Assembly: GCA_009914755.4 (NCBI GenBank)
Contig: CP068257.2
Location: 9,984,001-10,048,000, forward strand
DNA: 64,000 nt
Source of the DNA: the human T2T-CHM13v2.0 reference genome, Homo sapiens
Reading direction: 5' to 3'
Part shown: positions 26,101-54,665 of the stretch, piece after piece
How the letters are laid out: the number at the start of each line of letters is the position of its first letter
Position numbering within the stretch: position 1 is the first letter of the stretch
Made by a program: the position numbers and the translations under genes
The notes under the pieces: generated by a model
Told to the model about the DNA's origin: nothing
Database searches by the model: none
Seen by the model: only the letters and a program-made list of their open reading frames with translations

Positions 26101-29100
26101 TCTGTGTAGTTTTTATTGGAAGATATTTCCTTTACCATAATAGGTCTCAAAGCGCTCCAAATATCTACTTGCAATTTCTAAAAAAAGAGTGTTTAAAAAC
26201 TGCTCAATCAAAAGAAAGGTTCAACTCTCTGAGATGAATGTACACGTCACACAGAAGTTTCTGAGAATGCTTCTGTGTAGTTTTTATTGGAAGATATTTC
26301 CTTTTCCTCCATATGTCAGAAAGGGCTCCAAATGTCCACTTGCAGATTCTACAAAAAGACAGATTCAAAACTGCTCAATGAAAAGAGAGGTTCAACACTC
26401 TGAGTTGAATACACACATCAATAATAAGTTTCTCAGAATGCTTCTGTATAGTATTTATGTGAAGATATTTCCTTTTCCACAATAAGCCTCAAAGCACTCC
26501 AAATATCCACTTGCAGATACTAGAAAGAGAGTGTTTCAAAACTGCTCAATCATAAGATAGGTTCAACCCTGTGAGATGAATGCACACATCACAAAGAAGT
26601 TTTTCAGAATGCTTCTGTGTAGTTTTTATGTGAAGATACTTGCTTTTCCGCAGTGAGCCTCAAAACCCTGCAAATACTGACTTGCAGATTCTACAAGAAC
26701 AGTGTTTGAAAACTGCTGAATCAAAAGAAAGTTGGAATTTCGTGTGATGAATGCATACATCACAAAGAAGTTTCTCAGAATGCTTCTGTGTAGTTTTTAT
26801 GTGAAGCTATTTCTTTGCCATAGTAGGCCTCAAAGCACTCCAAGTATCCACTTGCAGATTCTACAAAGAGAGTGTTTCAAAACTGCTTAATCATAAGATA
26901 GGTTCAACTCTGTGAGACGAAAACAAACATCACAAAGAAGTTTCTCAGAATACCTCTGTGTAGTTCTTATTTGAAGGTATTTCCTTTTCCTTCGTAGGTG
27001 GCATAGGGCTCCAATTATCCACTTGCAGATTCTACAAAAAAAGAGATGCAAAACTGCTTAATCAAAAGATAGGTTCAACTCTGTGAGTTGAATGCAAACA
27101 TCACAAAGATGTGTCTCAGAATGCTTCTCTGTAGTTTTTATGTGAACATATTTCCTTTTCCACAATAGGCCTCAAAGTGCTCCAAATATCCACTTGCAGA
27201 TACTACAAAAAGAGTGTTTCAAAACTGCTCAATGAAAAGAAAGGTTCAACTCTGTGAGATGAATGCACACATCACAAAGAAATTTCTCAATATGCTTCTG
27301 TGCAGTTTTTATGTGAACATATATGCTTTTCCACCGTAGGCCTCCAAGGGCTCCATATATCCACTTGCAGATTCTACAAAAACAGTGTTTCAAAACTGCT
27401 CAATCAAAATAAATGTTGAACACTGTGAGATTAATCCACACATCACAAAGAAGTTTCTCAGAATGTTTCTGTGTAGTTTTTATGTGAAGATATTTCCTTT
27501 CCCACAGTAGGCCTCAAAGCACTCCAAATATCCACTTGCAGATTCTAGAAAGAGAGTGTTTCAACACTGCTCAGTCATAAGATAGGTTCAACCCTGTGAG
27601 CTGAATGCACGCATCACAAAGAAGTGTCTCAGAATTCTTCTGACTAGTTTTTATATGAAGATATTTCCTTTTCCACCATAGGCCTTAAAGCGCTACAAAT
27701 GTACACTTGCATATCCTACAAAAAGTGTATTTCCTAACTGGTCCATCAAAAGAATGGTTCAAATCTGGGAGATGAATGCACACATAACAAAGAAGTCTTT
27801 CAGATTGCTTCTGTCTAGATTTTATGTGATGATATTTCCTTTTCTACCATAGGCCACAAAGCATTCCAAATGTCCACTTGCAGATACTACAAAAAGAGTG
27901 TTTCCAAACTGCTTCATCAAAAGAAATGTTCAACTCTGTGAGATGAACACAATCATCACAAAGAAGTTTGTCAGAATTCTTCTGTCTAGTTTTTATATGA
28001 AGATACTTCCTTTTCCACCTTAGGCCTAAAGGTGCTCACAATGTCCACTTGCAGATTCTACAAAAAGAGTATTTCAAAACTGTTCCACCAAAAGAAAGAT
28101 TCAACTCTGAGAGATGAATGCACACATCACAAAGAAGTTTCTCAGAATGTTTCTGCGTAGTTTTTATGTGAAGATATTTCCTTTTGCACTACAGGCCTCA
28201 AAGCACTCTAAATGTCCACTTGCAGATTCTACAAAAGAGAGTTTCAAAACTACTCAATGAAAATAAAGGTTTAACTCTTTGAGATGAATGCACACATCAC
28301 AAAGAATTTTCTGAGATTGCTTTTGTCTAGATTTTAAGTGAAGATACTTCCTTTTCTACAATAGGCCACAAAGCGATCCAAATGTCCATTTGTAGATTCT
28401 ACAAAAAGAGTGTTTCCAAACTGCTGATTCAAATGAAAGGTTCATCTTTGTGAGAAAGGCATAACACATCAAAAAAAGTTTCTTAGAATTATTCTGTCTA
28501 GTTTTTATGTGAAGATATGTCCTTTTCCACCAAAGGCCTCAAAAAGCTCCAAATGTCCACTTGCAGATTCTACAAAAAGAGAGTTTCAAAACTGCACAAT
28601 CAAAAGAAAGTGTTAACTCTGAGATGAACGCACACATCACAAAGAAGTTTCTCAGATTGCTTCTGTCTGGATTTTATGTGAAGGTATTTCCTTTTCTACA
28701 ATAGGCTGCAAAGCGCTCCAAATATCCACTTGCAGATTCTACAAAAAGAGTGTTTCCAAACTGCTCAATCAAAAGAAAATTTCAATTCTGTGAGATGAAC
28801 ACACACAACACAAAGAAGTTTCTCAGAATTCCTCTGTCTAGTTTTTATGTGAAGATATTTCCTTTTCCACCATAGGAGTCAAAACTCTGCAAATGTCCAC
28901 ATGCAGATTCTACAAAAAGAATGTTTCCAACCTGCTCAATCGAAAGAAAGTTCAACTCTGTGAGATGAACGCACACATCACAGAGTAATTTGTCAGAATT
29001 CTTCTGTGTAGTTTCTATTTGAAGATATTACCTTTTCCACCATAGGCCTCAAAGTGCTCCAAATATCCACTTTCAGATTCTGCAAAAAGAGAGTTTCAGA

Positions 29101-32100
29101 ACTGCTCTATCAAAAGAAAAGTTCAACTCTGTGAGATGGATGCACACATCCCAAAGAAATTTCTCAGATTGCTTTTGTCTAGATTTCATGTGAAGATATT
29201 TCCTTTTATACCATAGGCCAGAAAGCACTCCAAATGTCCATTTGCAGATTCTACAAAAAGACAGTTTCCAAAGTGTTCAATCAAAAGAAAAGTTCAACTC
29301 TGTAAGATGAACGCACACATCACAAAGAAGTTTCTCAGATCGCTTCTGTATAGATTTTATGTGAAGATATTTCCTTTTTTACCATAGGCCACAAGGTGCT
29401 ACAAATGTCCACTTGCAGATACTACAAAAAGAGCGTTTAAAAATTGCTCAATCAAAAGAAAGGTTCAACTCTGTGAGAATAACGCACACATCACAAAGAA
29501 GTTTCTCATAATTCTTCTGTCTAGTTTTTATGTGAAGATATTTCCTTTTCCACAATAGGCGTTAAAGAGCTCCAAATGTCCACTTGCAGATTCTACAAAA
29601 AGAGACTTTAAAAACTGCTCAACCAAAACAAAGGTTAAACTCTGTGAATGAATGCACACAACACAAAGAAGTTTCTCAGATTGCTTCTGTCTAGATTTTA
29701 TGTGAAGATATTTTCTTTTCTACCATAAGTTGCAAATCTCTCCAAATTTCTACTTGTAGATTCTACAAAAAGAGTGTGTCCAAACTGCTCAATAAAAAGG
29801 AAGGTTCAACTCTGTGAGATGAATGCACACATCACAAAGAAGTTTCTCAGAATTCTTCTGTCTAGTTTTTATGTGAGGATATTTCCTTTTCCAGCATCAG
29901 CCACAAAGCGCTCCAAATGTCCACTTGCAGATTCTACAAAAAGAGAGTTTCAATACTGCTCAATCAACAGAAAGTTTTAACTCTGTAAGATGAACGCACA
30001 CATCACGAAGAAGTTTCTCAGATTGCTTTTGTCTAGATTTTATGTGAAGATATTACCTTTTCTACCATAGACCGCAAAGTGCTCCAAATGTCCATTTGCA
30101 GATTCTACAAAAACATTGATTCCAAACTGCTCTATCAAAAGAACGGTTCAAATCTGTGAGATGAACGCACACATCAACAAGCAGTTTCTCAGAATTCTTC
30201 TCTCTAGTTTTTATGTGAAGATATTTCCTTTTCCACCATAGGCCTCAAAGCGCTCCAAATGTCCACTTGCAGATTCTACAAAAAGAGAGTTTCAAAACTA
30301 TTCTATCAAAAGAAGGGTTTCAGCCTGTGAGATGAATGCACACATCACAAAGCAGTTTCTCAGATTGCTTCTGTCTAGATTTTATGTGAAGATATTTCCT
30401 TTTCTACCATAGGCCACAAAGCTTTCCAAATATCCACTTGCAGATTCTACAAAAAGAGTGTTTCCAAACTGTTCAATCAAAAGAAAGTTTCAACTCTTTG
30501 AGATGAACGCACACATCACAAAGAAGTTTCTCGGAATTCTTCTGCCTAGTTTCTATGTGAAGACATTTCCTTTACCACCATATTCCTCAAAGAGCTCCAA
30601 ATGTCCACTTGTAGATTTTAAAAAAAGAGTTTCATAAATGCTCAATCAAAAGAAAGTTTTAACTCTGTGAGATGAATGCTGACATCACAAAGAAGTTTCT
30701 CAGATTGCTTCTGTCTAGATTTTATGTTAAGATATTTCCTTTTCTACTGAAGACTGCAAAGCGCACCTAATGCCCACTTGCAGATTCTGCAAAAAGAGTG
30801 TTTCCAAACTGCTCAATGAAAAGAAAGGTTCAGCTCTGTGAGAAGAACGTACACATCACAATGTAGATTCTCAGAATTCTTTTGTCTAGTTTTTATATGA
30901 ACATATCTCGGTTTCTACCATAGGCTTCAAAGTGTTCCAAATGTCCACTTGCAGAATCTACAAAAAGAGAGATTCAAAACTGCTTAAGCAAACATACGAT
31001 TAATTTTGTGAGATGCATGCACACATCACAAAGAAGTTTCTCAGATTGCTTATGTCTACATTTAAGGTGAAGATATTTTCTTTTCTACCAGAGGAAGCAA
31101 AGCGCTTCAAATGTCCACTTGCAGATTCTACAAAAAGAGTGTTTCAAAACTGCTCAATGAAAAGAAAGGTTCAATCCTGTGAGATGAATGCACACATCAC
31201 AAAGAAGTTTCTCAGAATTCTTCTGTCTGGCTTTTATGTGAAGATATTTCCTTTTCCACCATAGGCCTCAAAACGCTCCAAATGTCCACTTGAAGATTCT
31301 ACAAAAAGAGATTTCAAAACTGCTCAAACAAAACTTTAACTCTGTGAGATGAATGCACACATCACAAAGTAGTTTCTCAGATTGTTTCTGTCTAGATTTT
31401 ATGTGAAGATATTTCCTTTTCTACCATAGTCTGCAAAGCACTCCAAATATCCACTTCCAGATTCTACAAAAAGAGTGTTTCCAAACTGCTGAGTCAAAAT
31501 AAAGGTTCAACTCTGTGGGATGTAAGCACAAATCACGAAGAAGTTTCTCAGAATTATTCTGCCTCGTTTTTGTGTGAAGATATTTCCTTTTCCACCATAG
31601 GCCTCAAAGTGCTCCAAATGTCCACTTGCAGATTGTACAAAAAGAGAGTTTCAAAACTGCTCAATCAAAAGACAGCTTTAACTCTGTGAGATGAATGCAC
31701 ACATCACAAAGAAGTTTCTCAGATTGCTTCTGCCTAGATTTTATGTGAAGATATTTCCTTTTCTACTATAGGCCATAAAGCATTCCGAAAGTCCACTTGC
31801 GGATTCTACAAAAAGAGTGTTTCCAAACTACTCAATCAAAAGAACGTTTCAACTCTGTGAGATGAAGGCACACATCACAAAGAAGTTTCTCGGAATTCTT
31901 CTGTCTAATTTTTATGTGAAGACATTTCATTCTCCACCATAGGCCTCATGGCTGTCGAAATGTCCACTTGCAGATTCTACAAAAAGAGTATTTCAAAACT
32001 GGTCCATCAAAAGAAAGTTTCAACTCTGTGAGATGAATGCACCCATCACGAAGAAGTTTCTCAGAATGTTTCCATCTAGGTTTATGTGAAGATATTTCCT

Positions 32101-33447
32101 TTTCCACCACAGGTCTCAAAGCGCTCCAAATGTCCACATGAAGATTCTACAAAAAGAGAGTTTCAAAACTGCTCAGTCAAACAAAGGGTTAACTCTGTGA
32201 GATGAATGCACACATCACAAAGAAGTTTCTCAGATTGCTTCTGTCTAGATTTTATGTGAAGGTATTTCCTTTTCTACCATAGGCCACCAAGTGCTCCAAA
32301 TGCTCACCTGCAGATTCTACAAAAACAGTGTTTCCAAACTGCTCAATCCAAAGAAAGTTTCAACTCTGTGAGATGAACATACACATCACAAAGAAGTTTC
32401 TCAGAATGCTTCTGTATAGTTTTTTATGTGAAGATATTTCCTTTTCTACCATAGGCCACAAAGCGCTCCAAATGTCCACTTGCAGATTCTACAAAAAGAG
32501 TGTTTCCAAACTGCTCAATGAAAAGAAAGGTTCAATCCTGTGAGATTAACGCACACATCACAAAGAAGTTTCTTGGAATTCTACTGTCTAGTTTTTCTGT
32601 TAAGATATTTCCTTTTCCACCATAGGCCTCAAATCGCTCCAAATGTCCACTTGCAGATTCTAGAAAAATAGACTTTCAAAACTTCTCAATGAAAAGAAAA
32701 GTTTATCTCTGTGGGATGAATGCACACATCACAAAGTAGTTTTTCAGATTGCCTCTGTCTAGATTTTGTGTGAAGATATTTGCTTTTCCACCATAGACCT
32801 CAAAGCGTTCCAAATGTCCTCTTGCAGGTGGTACAAAAATAGAGTTTCAAAACTGCTTCATCAAAACAACGGTTTAATTCTGTCAGATGAATGTACACAT
32901 CACAAAGAAGTTTCTCAGATTGCTTCTGTCTAGATTTTATGTGAAGATATTTCATTTTCTGTCATAGGCCGTAAAGCGCTCCAAATGTCCAGTTGCAGAT
33001 TCTACAAAAAGAGTCTTTCCAAACTGCTGACTCAAAAGAAAGTTTCAACTCTGTGAGATGAACGCATACATCACAAAGAAGTTTCTCAGAATTATTCTGT
33101 CTAGTTTTTATGGGAAGATATTTCCATTTCAACCATTGGCCTCAATGCGCTCCAAATGTCCACTTGCAGATTCTACAAAAAGAGAGTTTGAAAACTGCTA
33201 AATCAAAAGAAATATTGAAGTCTGTGAGATGACTGTGCATATCACAAAGAAATTTCTCAGATTACTTCTGTCTAGATTTTATGTGAATATATTCCCTTTT
33301 TTACCAAAGGCCGCAAAGCGCTCGAAATGACAATTTGCAGATTCTACAAAAAGTGTGTTTGCAAACTGCTAAATCAAAAGGAATGTTCAACTCTGTGAGA
33401 TGAACACACACATCACAAAGTTGTTTCTCAGAATATTTCTGCCTAGT

Positions 33448-34335
33448 TTATTTTTATTTATTTTTATTTTTTATTATTATACTTTAAGTTTTAGGGTACA
33501 TGTGCACATCGTTCAGGTTAGTTACATATATATACATGTGCCATGCTGGTGCGCTGCACCCACTAACTCGTCATCTAGTATTAGGTGTATCTCCCAATGC
33601 TATCCCTCCCCCCTCCCCCCACCCCACAACAGTCCCCAGAGTGTGATGTTCCCCTTCCTGTGTCCATGTGTTCTCATTGTTCAATTCCCACTTATGAGTG
33701 AGAATATGCGGTGTTTGGTTTTTTGTTCTTGTGATAGTTTACTGAGAATGATGATTTTCAATTTCATCCATGTCCCTACAAAGGACATGAACTCATCATT
33801 TTTTATGGCTGCATAGTATTCCATGGTGTATACGTGCCACATTTTCTTAATCCAGTCTATCATTGTTGGACATTTGGCTTGGTTCCAAGTCTTTGCTATT
33901 GTGAATAATGCCGCAATAAACATACGTGTGCATGTGTCTTTATAGCAGCATGATTTGTAGTCCTTTGGGCATATACCCAGTAAGGGGATGGCTGGGTCAA
34001 ATGGTATTTCCAGTTCTAGATCCCTGAGGAATTGCCACACTGACTTCCACAATGGTTGAACTAGTTTACAGTCCCACCAACAGTGTAAAAGTGTTCCTAT
34101 TTCTCCACATCCTCTCCAGCACCTGTTGTTTCCTGATTTTTTAATGATTGCCATTGTAACTGGTGTGGGATGATATCTCATTGTGGTTTTGATTTGCATT
34201 TCTCTGATGGCCAGTGATGATGAGCATTTTTTCATGTGTCTTTTGGCGCATAAATGTCTTCTTTTGAGAAGTGTCTGTTCATGTCCTTCGCCCACTTTTT
34301 GATGGGGTTGTTTGTTGTTTTCTTGTAAATTTGTT
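33448..34335 (-). mobile_element. LINE-1 (L1PA-type) 5'-truncated 3' end (~890 bp: ORF2 C-terminus + 3'UTR + A-rich tail), minus orientation
   Basis: 33483-34335 is the reverse complement of the L1 3' region (ctttaagttttagggtacatgtgcac...ccacattttcttaatccagtctatcattgttggacatttggcttggttccaag...gatggggttgtttgttgttttcttgtaaatttgtt). The T-rich stretch 33448-33482 is the reverse complement of an A-rich tail. Alpha monomer sequence resumes at 34336. About 95% identical to the L1 at 1575-1960 over the shared region (same L1PA-type 3'UTR). Confidence 0.9.
33681..34295 (-). pseudogene. L1 ORF2 C-terminal fragment (204 codons, reading frame open to native stop)
   Basis: Translation ...[185 protein letters not shown] matches the recalled C-terminus of human L1 ORF2p. 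Truncated element, not a functional gene. Confidence 0.85.
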
Positions 34336-37300
34336 ATTTGAATATATTTCCTTTTCCACCATAGACCTCAAAGCGTTACAAATGTCCACTTGCAGATCGT
34401 ACAAAGATAGTTTCAAAACTACTTCATCAAAAGAAAGGTTTAACTCTGTCAGATGAATTCTCACATCAGAAAGAATTTTCTCAGATTGCTTCTGTCTAGA
34501 TTTTATGTGAAGATATTTCCTTTTCTGCCACAGGCCACAAAGTGCTCCAAATGTCCACTTGCAGATTCAACAAAAAGAGTGTTTCCAAATGACCCAAACA
34601 AAAGAAAGTTTCAACTCTGTGAGAGGAATGCACACATCACAAAGTAGTTTCTCAGAATTTGTCTTTCTAGTTTTTATGAGAAGATAATTCCTTTTTCACC
34701 ATAGGTCTCAAAGCCTTCCAAATGTACAAATGCAGATTCGACAAAAAGAGAGTTTGAAAACTGCTCAATCAAAAGAAAGGGTTAACTCTGTGAGATGAAT
34801 ACACAAATCACAAAGAAGTTTCACAGATTGCTTCTGTCTAGATTTTATGTGAAGATATTTCCTTTTCTACCATAGACTGTAAAGTGCTCCAAATGTTCAC
34901 CTGCAGATTCTACAAAAAGAGTGTTTCCAAAATGCTCAATCCAAAGAAAGGTTCAACTCTGTGAGATGAACATACACATCACACAGAAGTTTCCCAGAAT
35001 GCTTCTATATAGTTTTTATGTGAAGATATTTCCTTTTCTACCATAGGCCACTCCGTGAGATGAATGCACACATCACAAAGAAGTGTGTCAGAATGCTTCT
35101 GTCTAGTTATTACGTAAAGATACTTCCTTTTCCACCAGACACCAAAAAGCGCTCCAAATGTCCACTTGCAGATTCTACAAAAAGAGTGTTTCAAAGCTGC
35201 TCAATCAAAAGAAAGTTCAACTCTGTGAGATGAATGCACACATCAAAAAGAAGTTTGTCAGAATGCTTCTGTCTGGTTTTTATGTGAAGATATTACCCTT
35301 TCCACCATGGGCCTCAAGGCGCTCCAAATGTCCACATCCAGATTCTACAAAAAGAGCTTTTGAAAGCTGGTCAATCAAAAGAAAGTTTCAACTCTGTGAG
35401 ATGAATGCACACATCACAAAGAAGTTTGTCACAATGCTTCTGTCTAGTTTTTATGTGAAGATTTTTCCTTTTCCACCATTGGTCTCACAGCACTCCAAAT
35501 GTCCACTTGCAGATTCTACAATAACAGTGTTTCAAAGCTGCTCAATGAAAAGTAAGGTTCAACTTTGTGAGATGAATGCACACATGATGAAGACATTTGT
35601 CAAGATGTTTCTGTCTAGTTCTCATGTGAAGATATTTCCTTTTCCACCATAGGCTTCAAATCACTCCAAACGTCCACTTGCAAATAGTACAAAAAGCGTC
35701 TTTCAAAACTCCTCAATCAAAAGTAAGATTCAATTCTGTGAGATGAATGCACACATCACAAAGAAGTTTGGTAGAATGCTTCTGTCTAGTTTTTATGTGA
35801 AGATATTTCCTTTTCCACCATAGGCCTCAAAGTGTTCCAAATGACCACTTGCAGATCCTACAAAAAGAGTGTTTCAAAGCTGCTCAATCTAAAGAAAGGT
35901 TCAACTCTGTGGGATGAATGCACACATCACAAAGAAATTTCTCACCATGCTTGTGTCTAGTTATTAAAGGAAGATATTTCGTTATCCACCATAGGAATCA
36001 AGTTGCTCCAAATGTCTACTTGCAGATTCTACAAAAAGAGTGTTTCAAAACTGCTCAATGAAAAGTAAGTTTCAACCCTGTGACATGAATGCACACATCA
36101 GAAATAAGCTTGTCGGAATGCTTCTGAGTAGTTTTTATGTGAAGATATTTCCTTTTCCACCATATGCCTCAAAGCGCCCCAAATGACCACATGAAGATTC
36201 TGCAAAAAGGGTTTCAAAACTGCTCAACGTAAAGTAAGGTTCAACTCTGTGAGATGAATGCACAAATCACAAAGAAGTTTGTCAGAATTCTTCTGTCTAG
36301 TTTTTACGTTATTTCCTTTTCCACCATAGGCCTCAACGTGCGCAAAATGTCCACTCAGATTCTACAAAAATGGTGTTTCAAAGTTGCTCAATCAAAAGAA
36401 ATGTTCAACTCTGTGAGATGAATGTACCCGTCACAAAGGAGTTTGACAGAATGCTTCTGCATAGTTTTTATGTGAAGGTATTCCTTTTCCACCATTGGCC
36501 TCAAAGCACTCCACATGTCCGCTTGCAGTTTCTACAAAAAGAGTGTTTCAAAACTGCTCAATCAAAAGAAAGGTCCAATTCTGTGAGATGAATGCACACA
36601 TCACAAAATTTTTTCAGAATGCTTCTGTCTAGTTTTTATGTGAAGATATTTCATTTTCCACCATAGGCCTCAAAGCGCTCCAAATGTCTACGTGCAGATC
36701 CTACAAAAAGAGTGTTTCAAATTGGTCATTCAAAACTAATTTTCAACTCCATAAGATGAATGCACCCATTATGACGAAGTTTGTCAGAATCTTTCTCTAT
36801 AGTTTTTATGTGAAGATATTTCCTTTTCCGCCATAGGTCTCAAAGCACTCCAAAAGTTTACTTGCAGATTCTACAAAAACAGTGTTTTTAAGCTGCTCAA
36901 ACAAAAGAAAAGTTCAACTCCGTGAGATGAATGCACACATCACAAAGAAGTTTTTCATTATGCTTATGTCTAGTTTTTATGTGAAGATATTTCCTTTTCC
37001 ATCATAGTCCTCAAAGTGCTCCAAATGTCCAGTTGCAGATTTTACAAAAAGAGTGTTTCAAAACTGCTCAATCAAAAGAAAATTTCAACTCTGTGACATG
37101 AATGCACACATCACAAAGAAATCTCTCAGAATGCTTCTGTCTAATTTTTAATTGAAGATATTTATTTTTCCACCATAGGCCTCAAAGCACTCAAATGTCC
37201 ACTTGCTGATTCTACAAAAAGAGGGTTTCCAAACTACTCAATCAAAAGAAAGGTTCAACTCTGTGAGATAAATGCACACATCACAAAGTAATTTGTCAGA

Positions 37301-37910
37301 ATGCTTCTGTCTAGTTTTTATGTGAAGATATTTCCTTCTCCACCATAGGCCTCAAAGCACTCCAAATATCCACTTCCAGATAGTACAAAAAGGGTGTTTC
37401 AAAACTGCTCAATCAAAAGCAATGTTCAACTCTCTGAGATGAATGCACACATCACAAAGAAGTACCTCAGAAAGCTTCTGTCTAGTTTTAATGTGAAGAT
37501 ATTTCCTTTTCCAACATAGGCCTCTTAGGGGCCAAATGTCCACGTGGAAATTCTACAAAGAGTGTTTCAAAACTGCTCAATCAAAAGAAAGATTCAACTC
37601 TGTGAGATGAATGATCACATCACAAAGAATTTTCTAAGAATGATCCTGTCTAGATTTTTTGTGAAGTTTTTACCTTTTCGACAATAGGCCTCAAAGCGCT
37701 CCAAGTGTACACTTGCAGATTCTACAAAAAGAGTTTTTCAAAACTGTTCAATGCAAAGGAAGTTTCAACTCCATGAGATGAATGCACACATCACAAAGGA
37801 GTTTGTCAGAATGTTTCAGAATAGTTTTTATGTGAAGATATTTCCTTTTGCACCATCGGTTGCAAAGCCCTCCAAATGTCCATTTGCAGATTCTACAGAG
37901 AGTGTTTCAA

Positions 37911-44850: not shown

Positions 44851-46561
44851 ATTGGAGTGCTTTGAGGCCTATGGTGGAAAAGGAAATATCTTCACTTAAA
44901 AACTAGACAGAAGCATTCTGACAAACTTCTCTGTGATGTGTGCATTCATCTCACAAAGAATTGAAACTTTCTTTGATTCAGGAGCTTTGAAACACTCTTT
45001 TTGTAGAATCTGCAAGTGTACATTTGGAGCGCTTTGAGGCCTATGGTGGAAAAGGGGACATCTTCACATATAGAACAGACAGAAGCATTCTGACAAACTT
45101 CTTTTCGATGTGTGCGTTCAACTCACAGATTTGAACCTTACTTTTCATTGAGCAGATATGAAACACTCCTTTTGTAGAATCTGCAAGTGGACAATTGGAC
45201 CGCTTTGTGGCCTATGGTGGAAAAGGATATATCGTCACATAAAAACTAGACAGAAATCTTCTGACAAACTTCTTTGTTATGTGTGCATTCATCTTTCAGA
45301 GTTGAACCTTTCTTTTGATTGAGCAACTTTGAAACACTGTTTTTGTAGAATCTGCAAGTAGTCATTTGGAGCGCTTTGGGGCCTATGGCAAAAAAGGAAA
45401 TATCTTCACATAAAAACTAGACAGAAGCATTCTGACAAACTTCTTTGCGATGTGTGTATTCATCTCACAGAGTTGAACCTTACTTTTCATTGAGCAATTT
45501 TGAAACACTCTTTTTGGAGAATCTGTAAGTGGACATTTTGAGGGCTTTGACGCACATGGTGGAAAAGGAAATACCTTCACATAAAAATTGGACAGAAGCA
45601 TTCTGACAAACTACTTTGTAATGTGTGCATTCATCTCTCAGAGCTGGACCTTTCTTTTGATTGAACAGCTTTGAAACACTCTTTTTGTAGAATCTGCAAG
45701 TGGACATTTGGAGCGCTTTGAGGCCTATGGTGGAAAAGGAAATATCTTCACAGAAAAACTAGACAGAAGCATTCTGACAAACTTCTTTGTTATGTGTGCA
45801 TTCATCTCACAAAGAATTGAAACTTTCTTTGATTCAGGAGCTTTGAAACACTCTTTTTGTAGAATCTGCAAGTGTACATTTGGAGCGCTTTGAGGCCTAT
45901 GGTGGAAAAGGGAACATCTTCACATATAGAACAGACAGAAGCATTCTGACAAACTTCTTTTCGATGTGTGCGTTCAACTCACAGATTTGAACCTTACTTT
46001 TCATTGAGCAGATATGAAACACTCTTTTTGTAGAATCTGCAAGTGGACAATTGGACCGCTTTGTGGCCTATGGTGGAAAAGGATATATCGTCACATAAAA
46101 ACTAGACAGAAATCTTCTGACAAACTTCTTTGTTATGTGTGCATTCATCTTTCAGAGTTGAACCTTTCTTTTGATTGAGCAACTTTGAAACACTGTTTTT
46201 GTAGAATCTGCAAGTAGTCATTTGGAGCGCTTTGGGGCCTATGGCAAAAAAGGAAATATCTTCACATAAAAACTAGACAGAAGCATTCTGACAAACTTCT
46301 TTGCGATGTGTGCATTCATCTCACAGAGTTGAACCTTACTTTTCATTGAGCAATTTTGAAACACTCTTTTTGGAGAATCTGTAAGTGGACATTTTGAGGG
46401 CTTTGACGCACATGGTGGAAAAGGAAATACCTTCACATAAAAACGAGACAGAAGCATTCTGACAAACTACTTTGTAAAGTGTGCATTCATCTCTCAGAGC
46501 TGGACCTTTCTTTTGATTGAACAGCTTTGAAACACTCTTTTTGTAGAATCTGCAAGTGGAC
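44850..46561 (+). repeat. Local 5-monomer higher-order repeat (856-bp unit), 2 copies at roughly 98% identity
   Basis: 44943-45080 (cacaaagaattgaaactttctttgattcaggagctttgaaacac...aaaagg(g)gacatcttcacatatagaacagacagaag) recurs at 45799-45936. ORFs 45383..45601 / 46239..46457 and 45480..45707 / 46336..46563 are near-identical at +856 offset. The copies diverge outside ~44850 and ~46620. Confidence 0.75.
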
Positions 46562-47150
46562 ATTTGGAGCGCTTTGAGGCCTATGGTGGAAAAGGAAATA
46601 TCTTCACAGAAAAACTAGACAGAAGTATTTTGAAAAACTTCATTGTGACGTTTGCATTCATCTCACTGATGTGAACCTTTCTTTTGATTGAGCAGTTTTG
46701 AAAAACTCTTTTTGTAGGATCTGCATGTGGACATTTGGATCGCTTTGAGGCCTATGGAGGAAAAGAAAATATCTTCACCTAAAAACCATACAGAAGTATT
46801 CTGAGAAACTTCTTTGTGATGTGTGCATTCATCTCACAGAGTTGAACCTTACTTTTCATTGAGCAATTTTGAAACACTCTTTTTGGAGAATCTGCAAGTG
46901 GACATTTGGAGGGCTTTGACGCACGTGGTGGAAAAGGAAATATCTTCACATAAAAACTAGACAGAAGCATTCTGACAACCTTCATTGTGATATGTGCATC
47001 CATCTAAGAGAGTTGAACCTTACTTTTGATTCAGCAGTTTTGAAACTCTCTTTTTGTAGAATCTGCAAGTGGACATTTGGAGCACTTTTAGACCTATGGT
47101 GGAAAAGGAAATATCTTCACATAAAAACTAGACAGAACAATTCTGAGAAA

Positions 47151-50100
47151 CTTCTTTGGGATGTGTGCATTCATCTCACAGAGTAAAACATTCTTTTGAT
47201 CCAGCAGTTTTGTAAGTATCTTTTTGTAGAATCTGCAAGTGGACATTTTGAGCCCTTTCAGGCCTATGGTGGAAACGGAAATATCTACAAATTGAAACTC
47301 GGCAGAAGAATTCTGAGAAACTCCTTTGTGATGCTTGCATTCATGTAACAGAGTTGAACCTTTCTTTATGATTGATCAGTTTGGAAACCCTCTTTTTTAG
47401 AATCTGCCAGCGGATATTTGGAGCGTTTTGCAGCCTATGGTGGAAAAGGAAATATCTTCACATGAAAACTAAATAGATGTATTCTGAGAAACTTCTATGT
47501 GATGTGTGCGTTCATCTCACAGAGTTGAACCTTTCTTTTGATTGAGCAGTTTGGAAACACTCTTTTTGTAGAATCTGCAAGTGGACGTATGGAATGCTTT
47601 GAAGCCTATGGTAGAACAGGAAATATCTTCACATAAAATCTGAACAGAGGAATTCTGAGAGACTCCTTTGTGATGTTTGTATTCATCTTACAGAATTAAA
47701 GCTTCCTTTTGAATGAGCAGATTTGAAACTGTCTTTTTGTAGAATCTGCAAGTGGACATTTTGAGCGCCTGGAGGCCTATGGTGGAAAAGAAAATGGCTT
47801 CACATGAAAACTAGACAGAAGAATTCTGAGAAACTTCTTTCTTATGTGTGCGTTAATCTCACACAGTTGAACCTTTCTTTTGATTGAGCAGTTTCAAACA
47901 CTCTTTTTGTAGAATCTGCAAGTGGACTTTTGGAGCACTTTGTGGCCTACGGTAGAAAAGGAAATATCATCACATAAAATCTAGACAGAAGCAATCTGAG
48001 ACTTCTTTGTGATGTGTGCATTCACCACACATTGTGTAACCTTTCCCTTGATTGAGCAGTTTTGAAACTCTTTTTGTAGAATCTACAAGTCTACATTTGG
48101 AGTGCTTTGAGACCTATGGTAGAAAAGGAAATATCTTCACATAAAAACTAGTCAAAAGAATTCTGAGAAACTTCTTGTTGATGTGTGTGTTCACCTCACA
48201 GAGTTGAACCGTTGTTTTGATTGAGCAGTTTGGAAACCCTCTTTTTGTAGAATCTGCATGTGGACATTTGGAGCGCTTTGAGGCCTATGGTGGAAAAGGA
48301 AGTATCTTCACATAAAAACTAGACAGAAGAATTCTGAGAAACTTCTTTGTGATGTCTGCATTTATCTCACAGACTTGAACCTTTCTTTTGATTGAGCAGT
48401 TTGGAAACACTCTTTTTGTAGAATCTGCAAGGGGACATTTGGAGCGGTTTACACCCTATGATAGAAAAGGAAATATCTTCACATAGAATATAGACAGAAG
48501 CAATCTGAGAAACTTATTTCTGATGTGTGAATTCATCTCACAGAGTTAAACATTTCTTTTGATTGAGCAGTTTGGAAACAATCTTTTTGAAGAATCTGCA
48601 AGTGAACATTTGGAGAGCTTTGTGGCATATGATAGTAAAGGAAATATCTTCAAATAAAATTTAGAGGAAGAAATCTGAGAAATTGCTTTTGATGTGTGCA
48701 TTCATGTCACAGAATTAAAGCTTTCTTTTGATTAAGCAGTTTTGAAACTCTCTTTTTGTAGAATCTGCAAGTGGACATTTGGAAATCTTTGAGGCCTGTG
48801 TTAGAAAAAGGAAATATCATCACATAAAAACTAGATAGAAGCAATCTGAGAAACTTTGGTGTGACATGTGAATTCATCTCCCAGAGTTGAAACATTCTTT
48901 TGATGGAACAGTGTTGATATACTCTTTTGGTAGAATCTGCAAGTGGACATTTCAAATTCATTGAGTCTTATGGTGGAAAAGGAAATATCTTTACATAAAA
49001 ACTAGACAGAAAAATCCTGGGAAACTTCTTTGTGATGTGTGCATTCATCTCACAGAGTTGAACCTTTCTTTTGAATGAGCAGTTTGGAAACTCTCTTTTT
49101 GCAGAATCTTCAAGTGGACATTTGGAGCGCTTTGAAGCCTATGGTAGAAAAGGAAATATCTTCACATAAAATCTACACAGAAGCAATCTGAGAAACTTCT
49201 TTGTGATGTGTGCATTCATCACACCGTGTTAAACCTTTCTCTTGACTGAGGAGTTTTGAAACTTACTTTTTGTAGTATCTGCAAGTGGTCATTTGGAGCG
49301 CTTTGAGGACTATGGTGGAAAAGGAAATATCTTCACATAAAAACCAGACAGAATAATTCTGAGAAACTTCTTTGTGATGAGTGAGTTCATCTCACAGAGT
49401 TGAACCTTTCTTTGATTGAGCAGTTTGGAAGCACTCTTTTTGTACAATCTGCAGGTGGATATTTGGAGCGCTATGCTGCCTATGGTAGAAAACGAAATAT
49501 CTTCACATAAAATCAGGACAGAAGCAATCTGAGAAACATCCGTTTGATGTGTGCGTTAATCTCACAGAGTTAAATCTTTCTTTTGATTGAGCAGTTTTGA
49601 AACTCTCTTTTTGTAGAATCTGCAAGTGGACATTTGGAGCGCTTTTAGAACTATGGTGGAAAAGGAAATATCTTCACAAAAATCTGGACAGAAGACTTCT
49701 GAGAAACTTCTTTGTGATGTGTGTATTCATCTCACGGAGTTGAACCTTTCTTTTGATTGAACAGTTTTGAAATGCTCTTTTTGTAGAATCTTCAAGTCAG
49801 CATTTGGAGTGCTTTGAGGACCATAGTGGAAAAGGAACTATCTTCACATAGAAACTAGACAGAAGAATGCTGACAGACATCTTTTTGACGTTCGTTAATC
49901 TCACAAGGTTGAGCCTTTCTTTTGATTGAACAATTTGGAAAATCTCTTTTTGTTGAATCTGCATGTGGACATTTGGAGCGCTTTGAGGCCTATGGTGGAA
50001 AAGGAAGTATCTTCACATAAAACTAGACAGAAGAATTCTGAGAAACTTCTTTGTGATGTGTGCGTTTATCTCACAGACTTGAACCTTTCTTTTGATTGAG

Positions 50101-50317
50101 CAGTTTGGAAACACTCTTTTTGTAGAATCTGCAAGGGGACGTTTGGAGCGGTTTGCGCCCTATGATAGAAAAGGAAATATCCTCACATAAAATATAGACA
50201 GAAGCAATCTGAGAAACTTGTTTCTCATGTTTGCATTCATCCACAGAGTTAAACGTTTCTTTTGATAGAGTAGTTTTGAAACACTCTTTTTGTAGAATCT
50301 GCAAGTGGACATTTTTA
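47151..50317 (+). repeat. Alpha satellite subtype IIa in inverted orientation
   Basis: Alternating monomers carry cacataaaatctagacagaagcaatctgagaaac and cacataaaaactagacagaagaattctgagaaac. These are the reverse complements of the IIa dimer members (cagattgcttctgtctagattttatgtg / cagaattcttctgtctagtttttatgtg). Confidence 0.65.
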
Positions 50318-50318
50318 A
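50317..50318. other. Orientation-switch junction (tail-to-tail) in alpha satellite
   Basis: ...gaatctgcaagtggacattt | ttaatgcagacatcacaaagtagtttctcagattgcttctgtctag. The left side is in consensus orientation (expected continuation ggagcgctttgagg). The right side is in the opposite orientation, starting mid-monomer (expected gagatgaatgcacacatcac). Confidence 0.85.
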
Positions 50319-53300
50319 TGCAGACATCACAAAGTAGTTTCTCAGATTGCTTCTGTCTAGATTGTATGTGAAGATATTTCTTTTTCTACCATAGACTCCA
50401 AAGCGATCCAAATGTCCACTTGCAGATTCTACAAAAAGAGTGTTTCCAAACTGTTCAACCAAAAGAAAGTTCAACTCTGTGAGATGAATGCACGCATCAC
50501 AAAAAAGTTTCTCAGAGTTCTTCTGTCTAGTTTTTATGTGAAGATAATTTATTTTCCAATATAGGCCTCAAGGTGCTCGAAATGTCCACTTGCAGGTTCT
50601 ACAAAAGAATATTTCAAAACTGGTCCATCAAAAGAAAGGTTTAACTCTGTGAGATGAATGCAAACATCACAAAGAAGTTTCTCAGATTGCTTCAGTCTAG
50701 ATGTCATGTGAAGATATTTCCTTTTCTACCATAGCCTGCAAAACGCTCCAAATGTCCACTTTCAGATTCTACAAAAAGAGAGTTTCAAAACTGCTCCATC
50801 AAAATAAAGGTCCAACTCTGTCAGATGAATGCACACATCACAAAGAAGTTTCTCTTCTTGCTTCTGTCTAGATTGTATGTGAAGATATTTCTTTTTCCAC
50901 CATACACCTCAAAGCACTCCAAATGTCCACTTGAAGATTCTATAAAAAGAGAGTTTCAAAGCTCTTCAATCAGAAGAAAGGTTCAACTCTGTGAGATGAA
51001 TGCACACTTCACAAAGAAGTTTCTCAGATTTCTTCTGTATAGATTTTATGTTATGATATTTCTTTTTCTACCATAGGCCTCAAAGCGCTCCAAATGTCCA
51101 CTTGCAGATTCTACAAAAAGAGAGTTTCAAAACTTCTGAATTAAAAGAAAGGTTTAACTCTGTGAGATGAATGAACACATCACTAGGATGTTGCTCAGAT
51201 TGCTTCTGTCTAGATATTATGTGAAGATATTTCCTTTTCTATCATAGGCCGCAAAGCGCTCCAAATGTCCACTTGCAGATTCTACAAAAAGAATGTTTCC
51301 AAGCTCCTCATTCAAAAGAAAGATTGAACTCTGTCAGATGAACGCACACATCACAAAGAAGTTTCTCAGAATTCTTTTGTCTAGTTTTTATGTGAAGATA
51401 TTTCCTTTCCCACCATAGTCCTCAAAGTGCTCCAAATGTCCACTTGCAGATTCTACAGAGAGTTTCAAAGCTCCTTCATCAAAAAAAAAAATGTTAACCT
51501 CTTTCTGATGAATGCACACATCACAAAGAAGTTTCTCAAATTGCTTCTGTCTAGATTTTGTCTGAAGATATTTCCTTTTCTGCCACAGACTGCAAAGCAC
51601 TCCAAATATCCATTTTCAGATTCTACAAAAAGACTCTTTCCAAACTCTTCAATCAAAAGAAAGGTTCAACTCTGTAAGATGAACGCAGACATCACAAAGA
51701 TGTTTCCCAGAATTCTTCTGTCTAGTTTTTATGTGAAGATATTTCATTTTCCACCAGAGGCCTCAAGGTGCTCAAATTGTCCACTTGCAGATTCTACAAA
51801 AAGAGAGTTTCAAAACTGCTCAATCAAAAGAAAGCTTTAACTCTGTGAGATGAATGCACACATCACAAAGAAGTTTCTCAGATTGCTTCTGTCTACAATT
51901 TATGTGAAGATATTTCCTTTTATGCTATAGGCCCCAAAGCGCTCCAAATGTCCACTTGCAGATTCTACAAAAAGAGAGTTTCCAAACTGCTCAATCTAAA
52001 GGAAGGTTCAACTCTGTGAGAACAATGCACGCATCACAAAGAAGTTTCTCAGAATTCTTCTGTCTAGTTTTTATGTGAAGATACGTTATTTTCCACCATA
52101 GGCCACAAAGCACTCTACATATCCACTTGAAGATTCTACAAAAAGAGAGTTTCAAATCTGCTCCATCAAAGGAAAACTTCAACCCTCTGAGATGAATGCA
52201 CCAATCACAAAGAAGTTTATCAGATTACTTCTGTTTATATTTTATATGAAGATATTTCCTTTTCCAATATAGGCCTCAAAGTGCTCCAAATATCCACTTG
52301 TAGGTTTTACAAAAAGAGAGTTTCAAAACTGTTAAATCAAAACAAAGCTTTAACTCTGTGAGATGAATGCACACATCACAAAGAAGTTTCTCAGATTGCT
52401 TCTGTCCAGATTTTATGTGAAGATATTTCCTTTTCTACCATAGGCCGCAAAACGCTCTAAATGTCCACTTGCAGATTCTACAAAAAGAGTGTTTCCAAAC
52501 TGCTCAATCAAAAGAAAGATTCAACTCTGTTAGATGAATGCACACATCGCCAAGTCGTTTCTCAGAATTCTTCTGCCTAGTTTTTATTTGAAGATATTTG
52601 CTTTCCAACCATAGTCCTCAAAGCGCTCCAAATGTGCACTTGCAGATTCTACAAACAGAGAGTTTCAAAACTCGTGCATCAAAAAAAGTTTACCTCTTTC
52701 AGATGAATGAACACATCACAAAGAAGTTTCTCAGATTGCTTTTGTCTAGATTTTGTCTGAAGATATTTCCTTTTCTGCCATAGGCCACAAAGCGCTCCAA
52801 ATATCCACTTGCAGATCCTACAAAAAGAGTGTTTCTGAACTCCTCAATCAAAAGAAAGTTTCAACTCTGTGAGATGAATGCACACATCACAAGGAAGTTT
52901 CTCAGAGTTCTTCTGATTTGTTTTTATATGAAGATATTTCCTTTTCTGTCATAGGCCTTTAAGCGTTCCAAATATCCACTTGAAGATTCTACAGAAAGAG
53001 AGTTTCCAAAGGGCTCAATCAAAAGAAAGTTTTAACTCTGTGAGATGAATGCACACATCACAAAGAAGTTAATCAGATTGCTTCTGTCTAGATTTTATGT
53101 GAGGATATTTCTTTTTCCAGCCTAGGCCGCACAGCACTCCAAATGTCCTCCTGAAGATTCTACTACAAAAGTTTTTCCAAACTGCTCAATAAAAAGAAAG
53201 GTTCAACTCTGTGAGATGAATGCACACATCACAAAGTAGTTTCTCAGAATGCTTCTGTCTAGTTTTTATGCGAAGATATTTCCTTTTCCACCGTAGGCCT

Positions 53301-54665
53301 CAAAACGCCCCAAATGTCCACGTGCAGGTTCTACAAAAAGAGAGCTTCAAAACTGCTCAATCAAAGAAGTTTTAACTCTGTGAGATGAATGCACACATCA
53401 CAAAGAAGTTTCTCATATTGCTTCTGTCTACAATTTATGTGAAGATATTTCCTTTTATACCATAGGCCCCAAAGCGCTCCAAATGTCCACTTGCAGATTC
53501 TACAAAAGGAGTGTTTCCAAACTTCTCAATCAAAAGAAGGTTCAAATCTGTGAGAAGAACACAGGCATCATAAAGAAGTTTCTCAGAATTCTTCTGTCTA
53601 GTTTTTATGTGAAGATACATTATTTTCCACCATAGGCCACAAAGCACTCTAAATGTCCACTTGCAGATTCTACAAAAAGAGAGTTTCAAATCTGGTCCAT
53701 CAAAAGAAAACTTCAACCCTGTGAGATGAACGCACATATCACAAAGAAGTTTATCAGGTTGCTTCTGTCTAGATTTTATGTGAAGATATTTCCTTTTATA
53801 CCATAGATTGCAAAGCACTCCAAATGTCCACTTGAAGATTCTACAAAAAGAATGTTTCCAAACTGCTCAATCAAAAGAAATGTTCAGCTCTATGAGATGA
53901 ACACAGACATCACAAAGAAGTTTCTCAGAATTCTTCTATCTAGTTTTTATGTGAAGATATTTCCTTTTCCCCATAGGTCTAAAATCTCTCCAAATATCCA
54001 CTTGCAGATTCTACAAAAAGAGAGTTTCAAAACTACTGAATCAAAAGAAAGGTTTAACTGTGTGGGATGAATGCACACATCACAAAGAACTTTCTCAGAT
54101 TGCCTCTATCTAGATTTTAATGTGAATATCTTTCCTTTTCTACCATAGGCCTCAAAGCGCTCCAAAAGTCCACTTGCAGATTCTACAAAAAGAGTGTTTC
54201 CAAACAGCTCAATCAAAAGAAATTTTTGACTCTGTGAGATGAACGCACTCATCACAAAGATGTTTCTCAGAATTCTTCTGTCTAGTTTTTATATGAAGAT
54301 ACTTCCTTTTCCACGATGGGCCTCAATATGATCCAAATATCCACTTGCAGATTCTACAAAAGGAGTGTTTCAAAACTCCTCAATCAAAAGAAAGATTTAA
54401 CTCTGTGAGATGAATGCAACATCACAAAGAAGTTTCTCAGATTGCTTCTGTCTGGATTTTATGTGAAGATATTTCCTTTTCCACCATAGGCCTTTAAGAG
54501 CTCCAAATGTCCACTTCCAGATTCTACGTAAAGAGAGTAGCAAAATTGCTCAATCAAGAGAAAGTTTTAACTCTGTGAGATAAATGCACACATCATAAAA
54601 AAATTTCTCAGTTTGCTTCTGTCTATATTTTATGTGAGGGTATTCCGTTTTCTACCATAGGCTGC
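50318..54665 (-). repeat. Alpha satellite subtype IIa (dimeric alternation), same orientation as 1-38575
   Basis: cagattgcttctgtctagatt.tatgtgaag / cagaattcttctgtctagtttttatgtgaag alternation. Multi-monomer paralogy inside: 51390-51600 vs 52585-52800 (offset ~1195 = 7 monomers) and 51840-52260 vs 53380-53800 (offset 1540 = 9 monomers, roughly 92% identity). Confidence 0.7.

What the first reader, a model, noticed from the sequence alone, without database searches (positions are those of the whole stretch)
27631..54665. Mirror-image domain architecture around 38575: I | IIa | IIb followed by inverted IIb and inverted IIa, then IIa | I
Monomer subtypes are arranged symmetrically. IIa(+) 27631-35050 and IIb(+) 35051-38575 are followed by IIb(-) 38576-47150 and IIa(-) 47151-50317, then IIa(+) 50318-54665. 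Type I arrays in the same orientation lie outside on both sides. This looks like an inverted duplication or palindrome-like arrangement with unequal arms (10.9 vs 11.7 kb), or an inversion of a IIa-IIb segment within a IIa/IIb alternating ancestor. Large inverted structures in alpha satellite are rare compared with head-to-tail arrays. They are prone to hairpin and cruciform formation and breakage. The L1 and AluYb on the left arm have no mirror counterparts, so the arms are not recent exact copies.
Basis: partly seen in the sequence, partly recalled or inferred. Interest (0 to 1): 0.65.

Follow-up and report, generated by a model that had tools for sequence, protein, structure and literature searches.

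The report
Inverted block in layered alpha satellite
An 11.7-kb stretch of old, non-functional human-type centromeric repeat (alpha satellite) lies on the opposite strand inside a nested set of repeat subtypes, which is real but is the ordinary, already described decay pattern of ancient centromere remnants and not a recent palindrome.

Summary
Profile-HMM tiling gives 349 full 171-bp monomers and three strand runs: + to 38576, − 38572-50314, + from 50318.

The arms are not copies of each other. No monomer pair across arms exceeds 93% identity. No antidiagonal stands out in identity, shared rare variants or subtype order. In contrast, local duplications inside IIb− (94-100%) and an exact 9-kb tandem duplication are detected easily. 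A recent inverted duplication or palindrome is therefore excluded.

A clean single inversion is also not met. The junction phases are not reciprocal, and it would need both breaks to fall exactly on subtype boundaries.

Best reading: this is a nested relic of layered alpha-satellite expansion (I–IIa–IIb–IIa–I) that an ancient rearrangement disturbed, leaving three out-of-phase junctions (35049/50, 38572-76, 50314-18). It was either a balanced three-break or nested inversion, or a very old fold-back. A later L1 and AluYb inserted into it.

Symmetric layers and strand switches in monomeric alpha satellite are well documented. Interest is low.

The parts
2003..27604 (+). Type I alpha-satellite array, left flank. 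Two A-type monomer classes (x/y) alternate irregularly, about 3:1 in the non-duplicated right part.
   Evidence: PCA PC1>0. G@40 0.90, A@97 0.95. Class consensus sequences.
27605..35049 (+). IIa(+) left: imperfect p/q dimeric array, with an antisense L1 3' fragment inside (33450-34323). The boundary with type I is in phase.
   Evidence: PC3 alternation. Diagnostic columns 30/32/44/70/81/124/130/156. Contiguous monomer tiling across 27605.
33450..34323 (-). L1 3'-end fragment inserted in a IIa monomer. The flanking monomer halves overlap by about 10 bp (HMM positions 37-46), consistent with a target-site duplication. No counterpart in the minus block.
   Evidence: It is 94% identical in inverted orientation to the L1 at 1591-1961.
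35040..35063 (+). Junction J3 (35049|35050). Consensus position 80 is joined to position 158 on the same strand. This 77-bp (mod 171) phase jump sits exactly at the IIa(+)|IIb(+) boundary.
   Evidence: TRF 94-bp pseudo-repeat at 34956-35137.
35050..38576 (+). IIb(+): 17 full monomers plus 2 partial ones, carrying an AluYb insertion.
   Evidence: G@24 0.65. Consensus identical to IIb(−). Subtypes alpha/beta/gamma/delta are shared with IIb(−).
37925..38235 (+). AluYb-type element with a long pure poly-A tail and an approximately 15-bp target-site duplication (aaactggtcaatcaa). It is a young insertion that postdates the rearrangement.
   Evidence: Direct reading: the GCAGTCCGCAGTC duplication typical of Yb8/9 (own knowledge). 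Monomer halves at 37782-37924 and 38235-38269.
38572..38576 (.). Junction J1, head-to-head strand switch. Plus strand ends at consensus position 136 and minus strand starts at position 45. The two share a 4-5 bp microhomology, AACT(G). No filler.
38572..47000 (-). IIb(−): 49 full monomers plus a 45-bp partial one at J1, with later local 3-mer and 5-mer duplications (94-100% identity).
47001..50314 (-). IIa(−): 19 full p/q monomers plus a partial one (50242-50316 by HMM), with many hybrid monomers. The boundary with IIb(−) at 47000/47001 is in phase.
50315..50317 (.). Junction J2, tail-to-tail strand switch. Minus strand ends at consensus position 93, followed by 2-3 nt (tt/a) of ambiguous origin, then plus strand starts at position 1. 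No clear microhomology.
50318..54754 (+). IIa(+) right: 26 p/q monomers. The boundary with type I at 54754/54755 is in phase.
54755..63055 (+). Type I array, right flank. Same x/y classes as the left flank but about 1:1. It abuts a (GGAAT)n-type satellite.

Best explanation
The region is a decayed remnant of layered alpha-satellite expansion. An older type I array was split by a dimeric IIa array, and IIa was split in turn by a IIb array. This gave a nest, I | IIa | IIb | IIa | I, all on one strand.

An ancient rearrangement then moved existing array segments without any duplication that can now be detected, and put 11.7 kb (most of IIb plus about 3.3 kb of IIa) on the other strand. The version I favour is a balanced three-break event, or equivalently two nested inversions sharing a breakpoint. 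In it, segment X (right end of left IIa plus left part of IIb) and segment Y (right part of IIb) were re-joined as Y, then inverted X. This creates exactly the three out-of-phase junctions seen: J3 at 35049/50, J1 at 38572-76 (microhomology-mediated) and J2 at 50314-18. It leaves the original IIa|IIb boundary intact and in phase at 47000/47001.

Afterwards the monomers diverged independently. IIb(−) gained local 3-mer and 5-mer duplications, and an L1 fragment and a young AluYb inserted.

Shown: the subtypes, strands, junctions, and the absence of arm paralogy.
Inferred: the nested ancestor and the order of events.

Probabilities: about 0.6 for the general statement (an old, non-duplicative inversion-type rearrangement of a nested layer relic); about 0.35 for the specific three-break path.
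For: The subtypes and strands are well defined, and each subtype is one population on both strands:
- identical IIb consensus sequences;
- no differentiation between IIb+ and IIb− (p=0.26-0.56), and none between the IIa blocks apart from one marginal p-type contrast (IIa+L vs IIa−, p=0.01; the other five contrasts p=0.08-0.94);
- the same IIb subtypes and the same delta-alpha-gamma trimer order on both strands.

No arm-to-arm paralogy is detectable, while the positive controls are obvious: an exact 9-kb duplication and 94-100% local twins.

Exactly three junctions are out of monomer phase, J3, J1 and J2. The other three subtype boundaries (27604/5, 47000/1, 54754/5) are seamless. This is what the three-break model predicts.

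Under that model every breakpoint shows only loss, of 12, 35 and 112 bp modulo 171 (derived). The reconstructed ancestor is a regular nest: IIa about 9.9 kb, IIb about 11.6 kb, IIa about 4.4 kb.

J1 has a 4-5 bp microhomology.

The literature documents symmetric layers and post-mortem inversions, deletions and transposable-element insertions in dead monomeric layers (PMC2729386 main text and Text S1; PMC4496801; 10.1101/2021.07.12.452052; PMC9549924).
Against: The three-break model needs one break to fall within about a monomer of the original IIb|IIa boundary. That is a coincidence of roughly a few per cent.

The phase losses can be read modulo 171 in any model, so they discriminate only weakly.

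The type I flanks differ in class ratio (y about 27% on the left, 54% on the right), so the nest is only partly symmetric.

All layers show similar divergence from their consensus (7-9%), so there is no independent evidence that the inner layers are younger.

No outgroup or second haplotype could be examined.
Confidence: 0.6

Rival explanations
1. Ancient fold-back inverted duplication. This could arise by replication template switching or by sister-chromatid fusion. Synthesis ran through IIa and IIb, switched strand at J1 using the AACT microhomology, copied IIb and IIa backwards, then switched again at J2 into the right-hand IIa. All mirror signal was erased later by divergence, array turnover and a deletion at J3.
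For: It produces the observed order a+ b+ | b− a− | a+ directly, and no breakpoint has to coincide with a subtype boundary. J1 has microhomology. J3 could be the scar of a deletion that shortened the left arm. IIb(−) shows later local amplification, which could explain the unequal arms.
Against: The 17 full and 2 partial IIb(+) monomers next to the axis should mirror the first IIb(−) monomers, but they do not:
- identity, p=0.48;
- shared rare variants, p=0.61;
- subtype order shows no mirror pattern.
IIa subtype order is not mirrored either (P=0.74).
The two IIa|IIb boundaries differ in structure, one out of phase and one in phase.
The event would have to predate essentially all of the 8-9% private divergence.
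Confidence: 0.25
2. Single simple inversion of a IIa-IIb unit within an ancestor that alternated IIa-IIb-IIa-IIb-IIa.
For: Only one inversion is needed once the alternating ancestor exists. Repeated layer segments without evidence of duplication have been described on Xq (Text S1 of PMC2729386).
Against: The junction phases are not reciprocal. J1 is +136|−45, which predicts −137|+46 at J2, but J2 is −93|+1. Both breakpoints would have to lie exactly on subtype boundaries, because no IIa residue lies left of J1 and no IIb residue lies right of J2. The model does not account for J3. It also needs a prior duplication whose two IIa|IIb boundaries now look different.
Confidence: 0.08
3. Recent palindrome or inverted duplication whose arms are paralogous copies and which is structurally unstable.
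For: Head-to-head arrays fold into long hairpins as single strands (−145 and −151 kcal/mol, z about −21 and −22, against −43 for a control).
Against: Arm identity is about 82% at all registers. The highest monomer identity across arms is 0.93, with no pairs above 0.94, against 34 such matrix cells (17 pairs) within the minus block. The only inverted match of at least 93% identity and 250 bp in the window is between the two L1 fragments. The nearest in-register arms are 84-87% complementary with 75-79 nt spacers.
Confidence: 0.01
4. Assembly artefact: mis-joined contigs or reads in a satellite region created false strand switches.
For: The window also contains an exact 9-kb tandem duplication. 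That could be either a very recent event or a collapse or expansion error.
Against: The junctions are clean, one has microhomology, and each lies within a single subtype (IIb|IIb and IIa|IIa). The monomers here are divergent (about 15% pairwise), so reads are easy to place. The subtype domains are coherent across the junctions.
Confidence: 0.04

Closest known systems
Layered ('tree-ring') dead alpha-satellite layers flanking primate centromeres (Schueler et al.; Shepelev et al. 2009, PMC2729386; Altemose et al., 10.1101/2021.07.12.452052)
   Same: Discrete arrays of distinct monomer types with no homogeneous higher-order repeats. The same types lie on both sides of an inner array and mix well with each other. 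Pure A-type dimeric layers alternate imperfectly. Transposable-element insertions, deletions and inversions have accumulated.
   Different: Here the nest is only about 27 kb and sits inside a flank, not around a live centromere. Its relation to any active array is unknown, because the chromosome and the suprachromosomal families (SFs) could not be determined with these tools.
Strand switches and inversions in divergent or monomeric alpha satellite (for example the inverted 'bright green' sublayer on Xq, Text S1 of PMC2729386; genome-wide counts in 10.1101/2021.07.12.452052 and 10.64898/2026.07.22.740206)
   Same: An inverted block inside a dead monomeric layer, with breakpoints inside monomers and no evidence of duplication.
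   Different: The inverted block spans a subtype boundary and keeps the nest's subtype order. That requires more than a single clean inversion: three out-of-phase junctions.
Fold-back or DUP-TRP/INV-DUP type replicative rearrangements (FoSTeS/MMBIR), known from genomic-disorder loci (own knowledge)
   Same: A mirror order of segments around a head-to-head junction with microhomology, followed by a second switch back to the original strand.
   Different: The defining feature, duplicated or triplicated sequence with paralogous arms, was tested and not found. If the mechanism applies here, it acted before nearly all monomer divergence.

Membership tests
Primate alpha satellite | Tandem monomers of about 171 bp, AT-rich, matching the alpha consensus | tested here: met
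   TRF period 171/342 across 1-63055. 371 nhmmer monomer hits, 349 of them full length. GC 0.36-0.39. The consensus is recognisably alpha satellite from my own knowledge; no reference database was available.
Monomeric/divergent ('dead') alpha-satellite layer, as opposed to a homogeneous higher-order-repeat (HOR) array | No homogeneous HOR; monomers about 70-90% identical with star-like divergence from a class consensus; transposable elements present | tested here: met
   Within-domain pairwise identity 0.83-0.86. Divergence from class consensus 7-9%. Best matches are consensus-like hub monomers. L1 and Alu insertions are present.
Monomeric/divergent ('dead') alpha-satellite layer | A-type monomers only, with no CENP-B box | tested here: met
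   All class consensus sequences carry TTCCTTTTC(C/T)AC(C/A)ATAGGCC in the A/B-box region and none has a CENP-B box (motif from own knowledge and PMC4496801 Table 1).
Layered-expansion nest | The same monomer type on both sides of an inner, different type, with the flanking copies mixing well | tested here: met
   I_L vs I_R identity 0.829, against 0.832 and 0.835 within each. The IIa blocks are indistinguishable apart from one marginal p-type contrast. PCA.
Layered-expansion nest | Inner layers are younger (less diverged, younger transposable elements) than outer ones | tested here: inconclusive
   Divergence from consensus is similar in I, IIa and IIb at 7-9%. The L1 subfamilies could not be typed with these tools.
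Suprachromosomal family (SF) assignment (HumAS-HMMER / Alexandrov classes) | Match to SF class HMMs or consensus monomers | not testable with these tools
   No SF consensus sequences or HMMs were available. The supplements of PMC2729386 hold none as text. The only statement possible is that type I and IIa are two-class A-type arrays, like the H1H2 (OaNa) kind of layer.
Palindrome / inverted duplication | Arms are paralogous: elevated identity or shared derived variants along one antidiagonal | tested here: not met
   The positive control, a direct 9-kb duplication, gave a +16% identity excess.
Simple two-break inversion | Reciprocal junction phases: +p1|−p2 at one end and −(p1+1)|+(p2+1) at the other | tested here: not met
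   J1 is +136|−45 and J2 is −93|+1. Each side is off by 44-45 bp.

The most novel reading that the evidence does not exclude
The head-to-head junction at 38572-38576 may be the fossil of a fold-back inverted duplication that happened inside a then-young, possibly active, ancestral primate centromere core (IIb) and its first flank (IIa). In that case a centromere core once carried a large inverted-repeat architecture, whose mirror signal has since been erased by divergence and array turnover.
Probability: 0.2. Interest if true: 0.35.

Novelty: already known. Interest (0 to 1): 0.15.

Why it matters
It is a clear small-scale example of two established features of pericentromeric alpha satellite: nested, symmetric layers of monomer types, and post-mortem inversions. 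Its practical use is as a worked case. Mirror order of subtypes alone does not indicate a palindrome, and the three out-of-phase junctions could serve as markers for tracing this rearrangement across human haplotypes and apes. It does not open a new question.

Tried and rejected
1. Long-range blastn of the inverted block against the plus arrays gave about 82% identity at every register, with no privileged antidiagonal.

2. The overall left-arm × inverted-block antidiagonal scan looked significant. The cause was block structure and dimer register. Within subtype blocks the signal was absent or about +1.3%, and it was equally present in a direct control.

3. A 12-14-monomer run of matching p/q order between the IIa(+) tail and IIa(−), seen with crude PC3 typing, looked like ancient mirror paralogy. 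It disappeared with half-monomer typing and a Markov null (P=0.74). Shared rare variants did not support it either (p=0.71).

4. A 54-nt inverted match of 94% next to J1 (38266-38319 vs 38571-38624) lies in the most conserved part of the monomer. It is not significant after allowing for about 17 candidate partners.

5. Near-reciprocity of J3 (+80) with J2 (−93) is only weak support, roughly 15% by chance.

6. Both sides of J2 being off by an equal 44-45 bp is an unexplained coincidence of about 2% post hoc. The inverted 44-45-bp duplication it would imply at the breakpoints is not visible: by eye, the two candidate copies are about 82% identical, which is background.

7. Exact-match searches for the J1 and J2 junction strings in the metagenome and prokaryotic genome contig collections found nothing. 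This was expected and is uninformative.

8. SF classification could not be done because no reference consensus sequences were available.
Full report
**What the window is.** TRF finds 171- and 342-bp tandem arrays from 1 to 63055, followed by a (TGGAA)n-type satellite. GC is 0.36-0.39, and GC skew is negative everywhere except 38-50 kb, where it is positive. A profile HMM built from the window's own monomers tiles it with 371 hits, 349 of them full length. The strand runs are + 1-38579, − 38570-50316 and + 50318-63055. The tiling is interrupted only by an L1 3' end at 1575-1959, an antisense L1 3' fragment at 33450-34323, and an Alu at about 37925-38235. This is human-type monomeric, divergent alpha satellite. 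Pairwise identity within domains is 0.83-0.86, all class consensus sequences are A-type, and there is no homogeneous higher-order repeat.

**Checking the observation.** I ran a PCA on the aligned monomers without positional information.
- PC1 separates type I (2003-27604 and 54755-63055) from type II (27605-54754).
- PC3 alternates strongly, showing a dimeric p/q structure, in 27605-35049, 47001-50314 and 50318-54754 (IIa).
- PC3 is flat in 35050-47000 (IIb).
- Type I itself consists of two irregularly alternating classes (PC2).

G at consensus position 24 is 0.65 in both IIb+ and IIb−, and at most 0.05 elsewhere. G at position 40 is 0.90-0.96 in type I and at most 0.06 in type II. A at position 97 is 0.95-1.0 in type I and 0.04-0.31 in type II. 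The consensus sequences of IIb+ and IIb− are identical over 170 positions.

**Are the arms copies of each other?** No.
- The inverted block aligns to the plus-strand arrays at about 82% identity at every monomer register, and to itself at 84-85.7%.
- Across arms, each monomer's best matches are always the same few consensus-like hub monomers, not positional partners.
- The highest inter-arm monomer identity is 0.93, with no pair above 0.94. Inside the minus block, 34 matrix cells (17 monomer pairs) exceed 0.94.
- Antidiagonal scans within subtype blocks are null for IIb (p=0.48). For IIa they give a +1.3% excess, which also appears in a direct-orientation comparison of the two plus-strand IIa blocks. 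This is therefore a dimer-register effect.
- The positive control, the 8967-bp direct duplication in type I, gives a +16% excess.
- Counting only shared rare variants gives no antidiagonal signal: p=0.71 for IIa and p=0.61 for IIb.
- A tempting 12-14-monomer match in p/q order disappears with finer typing and a Markov null (P=0.74).
- The only inverted match in the whole window of at least 93% identity and 250 bp is between the two L1 fragments.

At the same time the arms are statistically the same populations. Permutation tests show no differentiation between IIb+ and IIb− (p=0.26-0.56). Among the three IIa blocks only one of six contrasts is marginal (p-type, IIa+L vs IIa−, p=0.01), and the others are p=0.08-0.94. 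Both IIb arms contain the same old subtypes and the same delta-alpha-gamma trimer order. Monomers in all domains differ from their class consensus by 7-9%. Any duplication of one arm from the other would therefore have to predate essentially all of that private divergence.

**The junctions** (consensus coordinates).
- J1, at 38572-38576, joins + position 136 to − position 45. The two sides share AACT(G), a 4-5-bp microhomology, and there is no filler.
- J2, at 50314|50318, joins − position 93 to + position 1, with 2-3 ambiguous bases (tt/a) between.
It joins + position 80 to + position 158, exactly at the IIa(+)|IIb(+) boundary.
- The other three subtype boundaries (27604/5, 47000/1, 54754/5) are seamless and in monomer phase.

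A clean two-break inversion predicts −137|+46 at J2, and this is not met. Each side is off by 44-45 bp. That equality is an unexplained coincidence of about 2%, judged post hoc.

**Which history fits?** This part is inference.

- *Single inversion.* Undoing a single inversion of 38576-50317 gives an alternating ancestor, IIa-IIb-IIa-IIb-IIa. That model needs both breaks to fall exactly on subtype boundaries, because no IIa residue lies left of J1 and no IIb residue lies right of J2. It leaves J3 unexplained and fails the phase test. I rate it about 0.08.

- *Three-break or nested inversions.* Start from a symmetric nest, I | IIa | IIb | IIa | I, which is the pattern expected from layered expansion (PMC2729386; 10.1101/2021.07.12.452052). 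It can be converted to the observed arrangement by a balanced three-break rearrangement, or by two nested inversions sharing a breakpoint. Segment X (the last 3.3 kb of left IIa plus the first 8.4 kb of IIb) and segment Y (the last 3.2 kb of IIb) are re-joined as Y, then inverted X. This predicts exactly three novel junctions (J3, J1, J2) and one preserved, in-phase IIa|IIb boundary (47000/1), as observed. Only sequence loss is needed at each break: 12, 35 and 112 bp modulo 171. Its cost is that one break must coincide with the old IIb|IIa boundary.

- *Fold-back duplication.* A strand switch at J1, copying backwards through IIb and into IIa, then a second switch at J2 gives the observed order with no boundary coincidence. 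It also uses the J1 microhomology. However, it predicts mirror paralogy between the 17 full and 2 partial IIb(+) monomers and the axis-proximal IIb(−) monomers. None is seen in identity, rare variants or subtype order. It would have to be as old as the arrays themselves and be followed by turnover and a deletion at J3.

I rate a non-duplicative, ancient inversion-type rearrangement of a nested relic at about 0.6, with about 0.35 for the specific three-break path. I rate an ancient fold-back at about 0.25. A recent palindrome is excluded. An assembly artefact is unlikely (about 0.04), because the monomers are divergent and each junction lies within a single subtype.

**Structural consequences.** As single strands, 500-nt windows centred on J1 and J2 fold into long imperfect hairpins: −145 and −151 kcal/mol, with z-scores of −21 and −22. 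A control window inside IIb(−) gives −43 kcal/mol and z=+1.6. The closest in-register arms are 84-87% complementary and separated by 75-79 nt. Hairpins on a single-stranded template are plausible. Cruciform extrusion from duplex DNA is not, which I infer from the general requirement for near-perfect arms and short spacers.

**Later events.**
- The AluYb has a pure poly-A tail and an approximately 15-bp target-site duplication in IIb(+).
- The L1 fragment in IIa(+) has an approximately 10-bp overlap of the flanking monomer halves.
- IIb(−) has local duplications: a 5-monomer unit, 44947-45802 vs 45803-46658, at 96-100% per monomer, and 3-monomer units around 40329-41698 and 43748-44774.

**Comparison with what is known.** Symmetric, discrete layers of dead monomeric or dimeric A-type alpha satellite are established, as is their accumulation of deletions, inversions and transposable elements (PMC2729386; PMC4496801 section 2.1; PMC9549924). 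Text S1 of PMC2729386 already describes an inverted sublayer on Xq. It also describes a layer pair that is repeated without evidence of duplication and is attributed to inversion or insertion. Altemose et al. state that diverged alpha satellites are known to contain many inversions, and they quantify strand switches genome-wide. A 2026 preprint reports that about 89.6% of alpha-satellite strand switches lie in monomeric regions. The present structure is an instance of this known decay pattern. Its only slightly unusual feature is that subtype order is preserved across the inverted block, which requires a three-junction history. SF names could not be assigned because no reference models were available.

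**Verdict.** The phenomenon is already known. Interest is 0.15.

Noticed in passing
window 2182-11204 and 11149-20171: A tandem duplication within type I with a period of 8967 bp. The sequences are identical with no mismatches over about 9.0 kb (2193-11195 vs 11160-20162). This is either a very recent duplication or an assembly artefact. It also explains the repeated truncated monomers at 4384-4474 and 13351-13441.
   Followed up: partly
window 1575-1959: A sense-strand L1 3' end with an (AAT)n-like tail and an approximately 12-bp target-site duplication (aactgctcaatc). It sits at the transition between a distinct left-most monomer type (T0, 1-1574; C@40, A@97, T@86) and type I. It is 94% identical, in inverted orientation, to the L1 fragment at 33464-33832.
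   Followed up: partly
window 63056-64000: Alpha satellite ends in mid-monomer at 63055 and abuts a degenerate (GGAAT/GGAGT)n HSat2/3-like satellite. That satellite contains a short Alu-like fragment at about 63840-63900.
   Followed up: no
window 60207-60760: A 276-bp out-of-phase direct repeat of 95.7% identity (60207-60482 vs 60485-60760) within right-hand type I. There are further phase jumps at about 56292-56417, and at 9756-9939 with its duplicate at 18723-18906.
   Followed up: no
window 40329-41698, 43748-44774, 44947-46658: Local 3-monomer and 5-monomer duplications inside IIb(−), 92-100% identical. IIb as a whole shows old subtypes (alpha, beta, gamma, delta) with a delta-alpha-gamma trimer on both strands. 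This suggests an ancient short higher-order repeat.
   Followed up: partly
window 20101-27604 vs 54755-63055: The two type I flanks use the same two monomer classes, but the ratios differ: y class about 27% on the left and about 54% on the right, where alternation is nearly regular. The outer layer is therefore only partly symmetric.
   Followed up: partly
window 38572-38576 and 50314-50318: At both strand switches the plus and minus arrays are offset by nearly the same phase, 91-92 bp or about half a monomer. Equivalently, both sides of J2 depart from the clean-inversion expectation by 44-45 bp. This is unexplained and may be chance (about 2% post hoc).
   Followed up: partly
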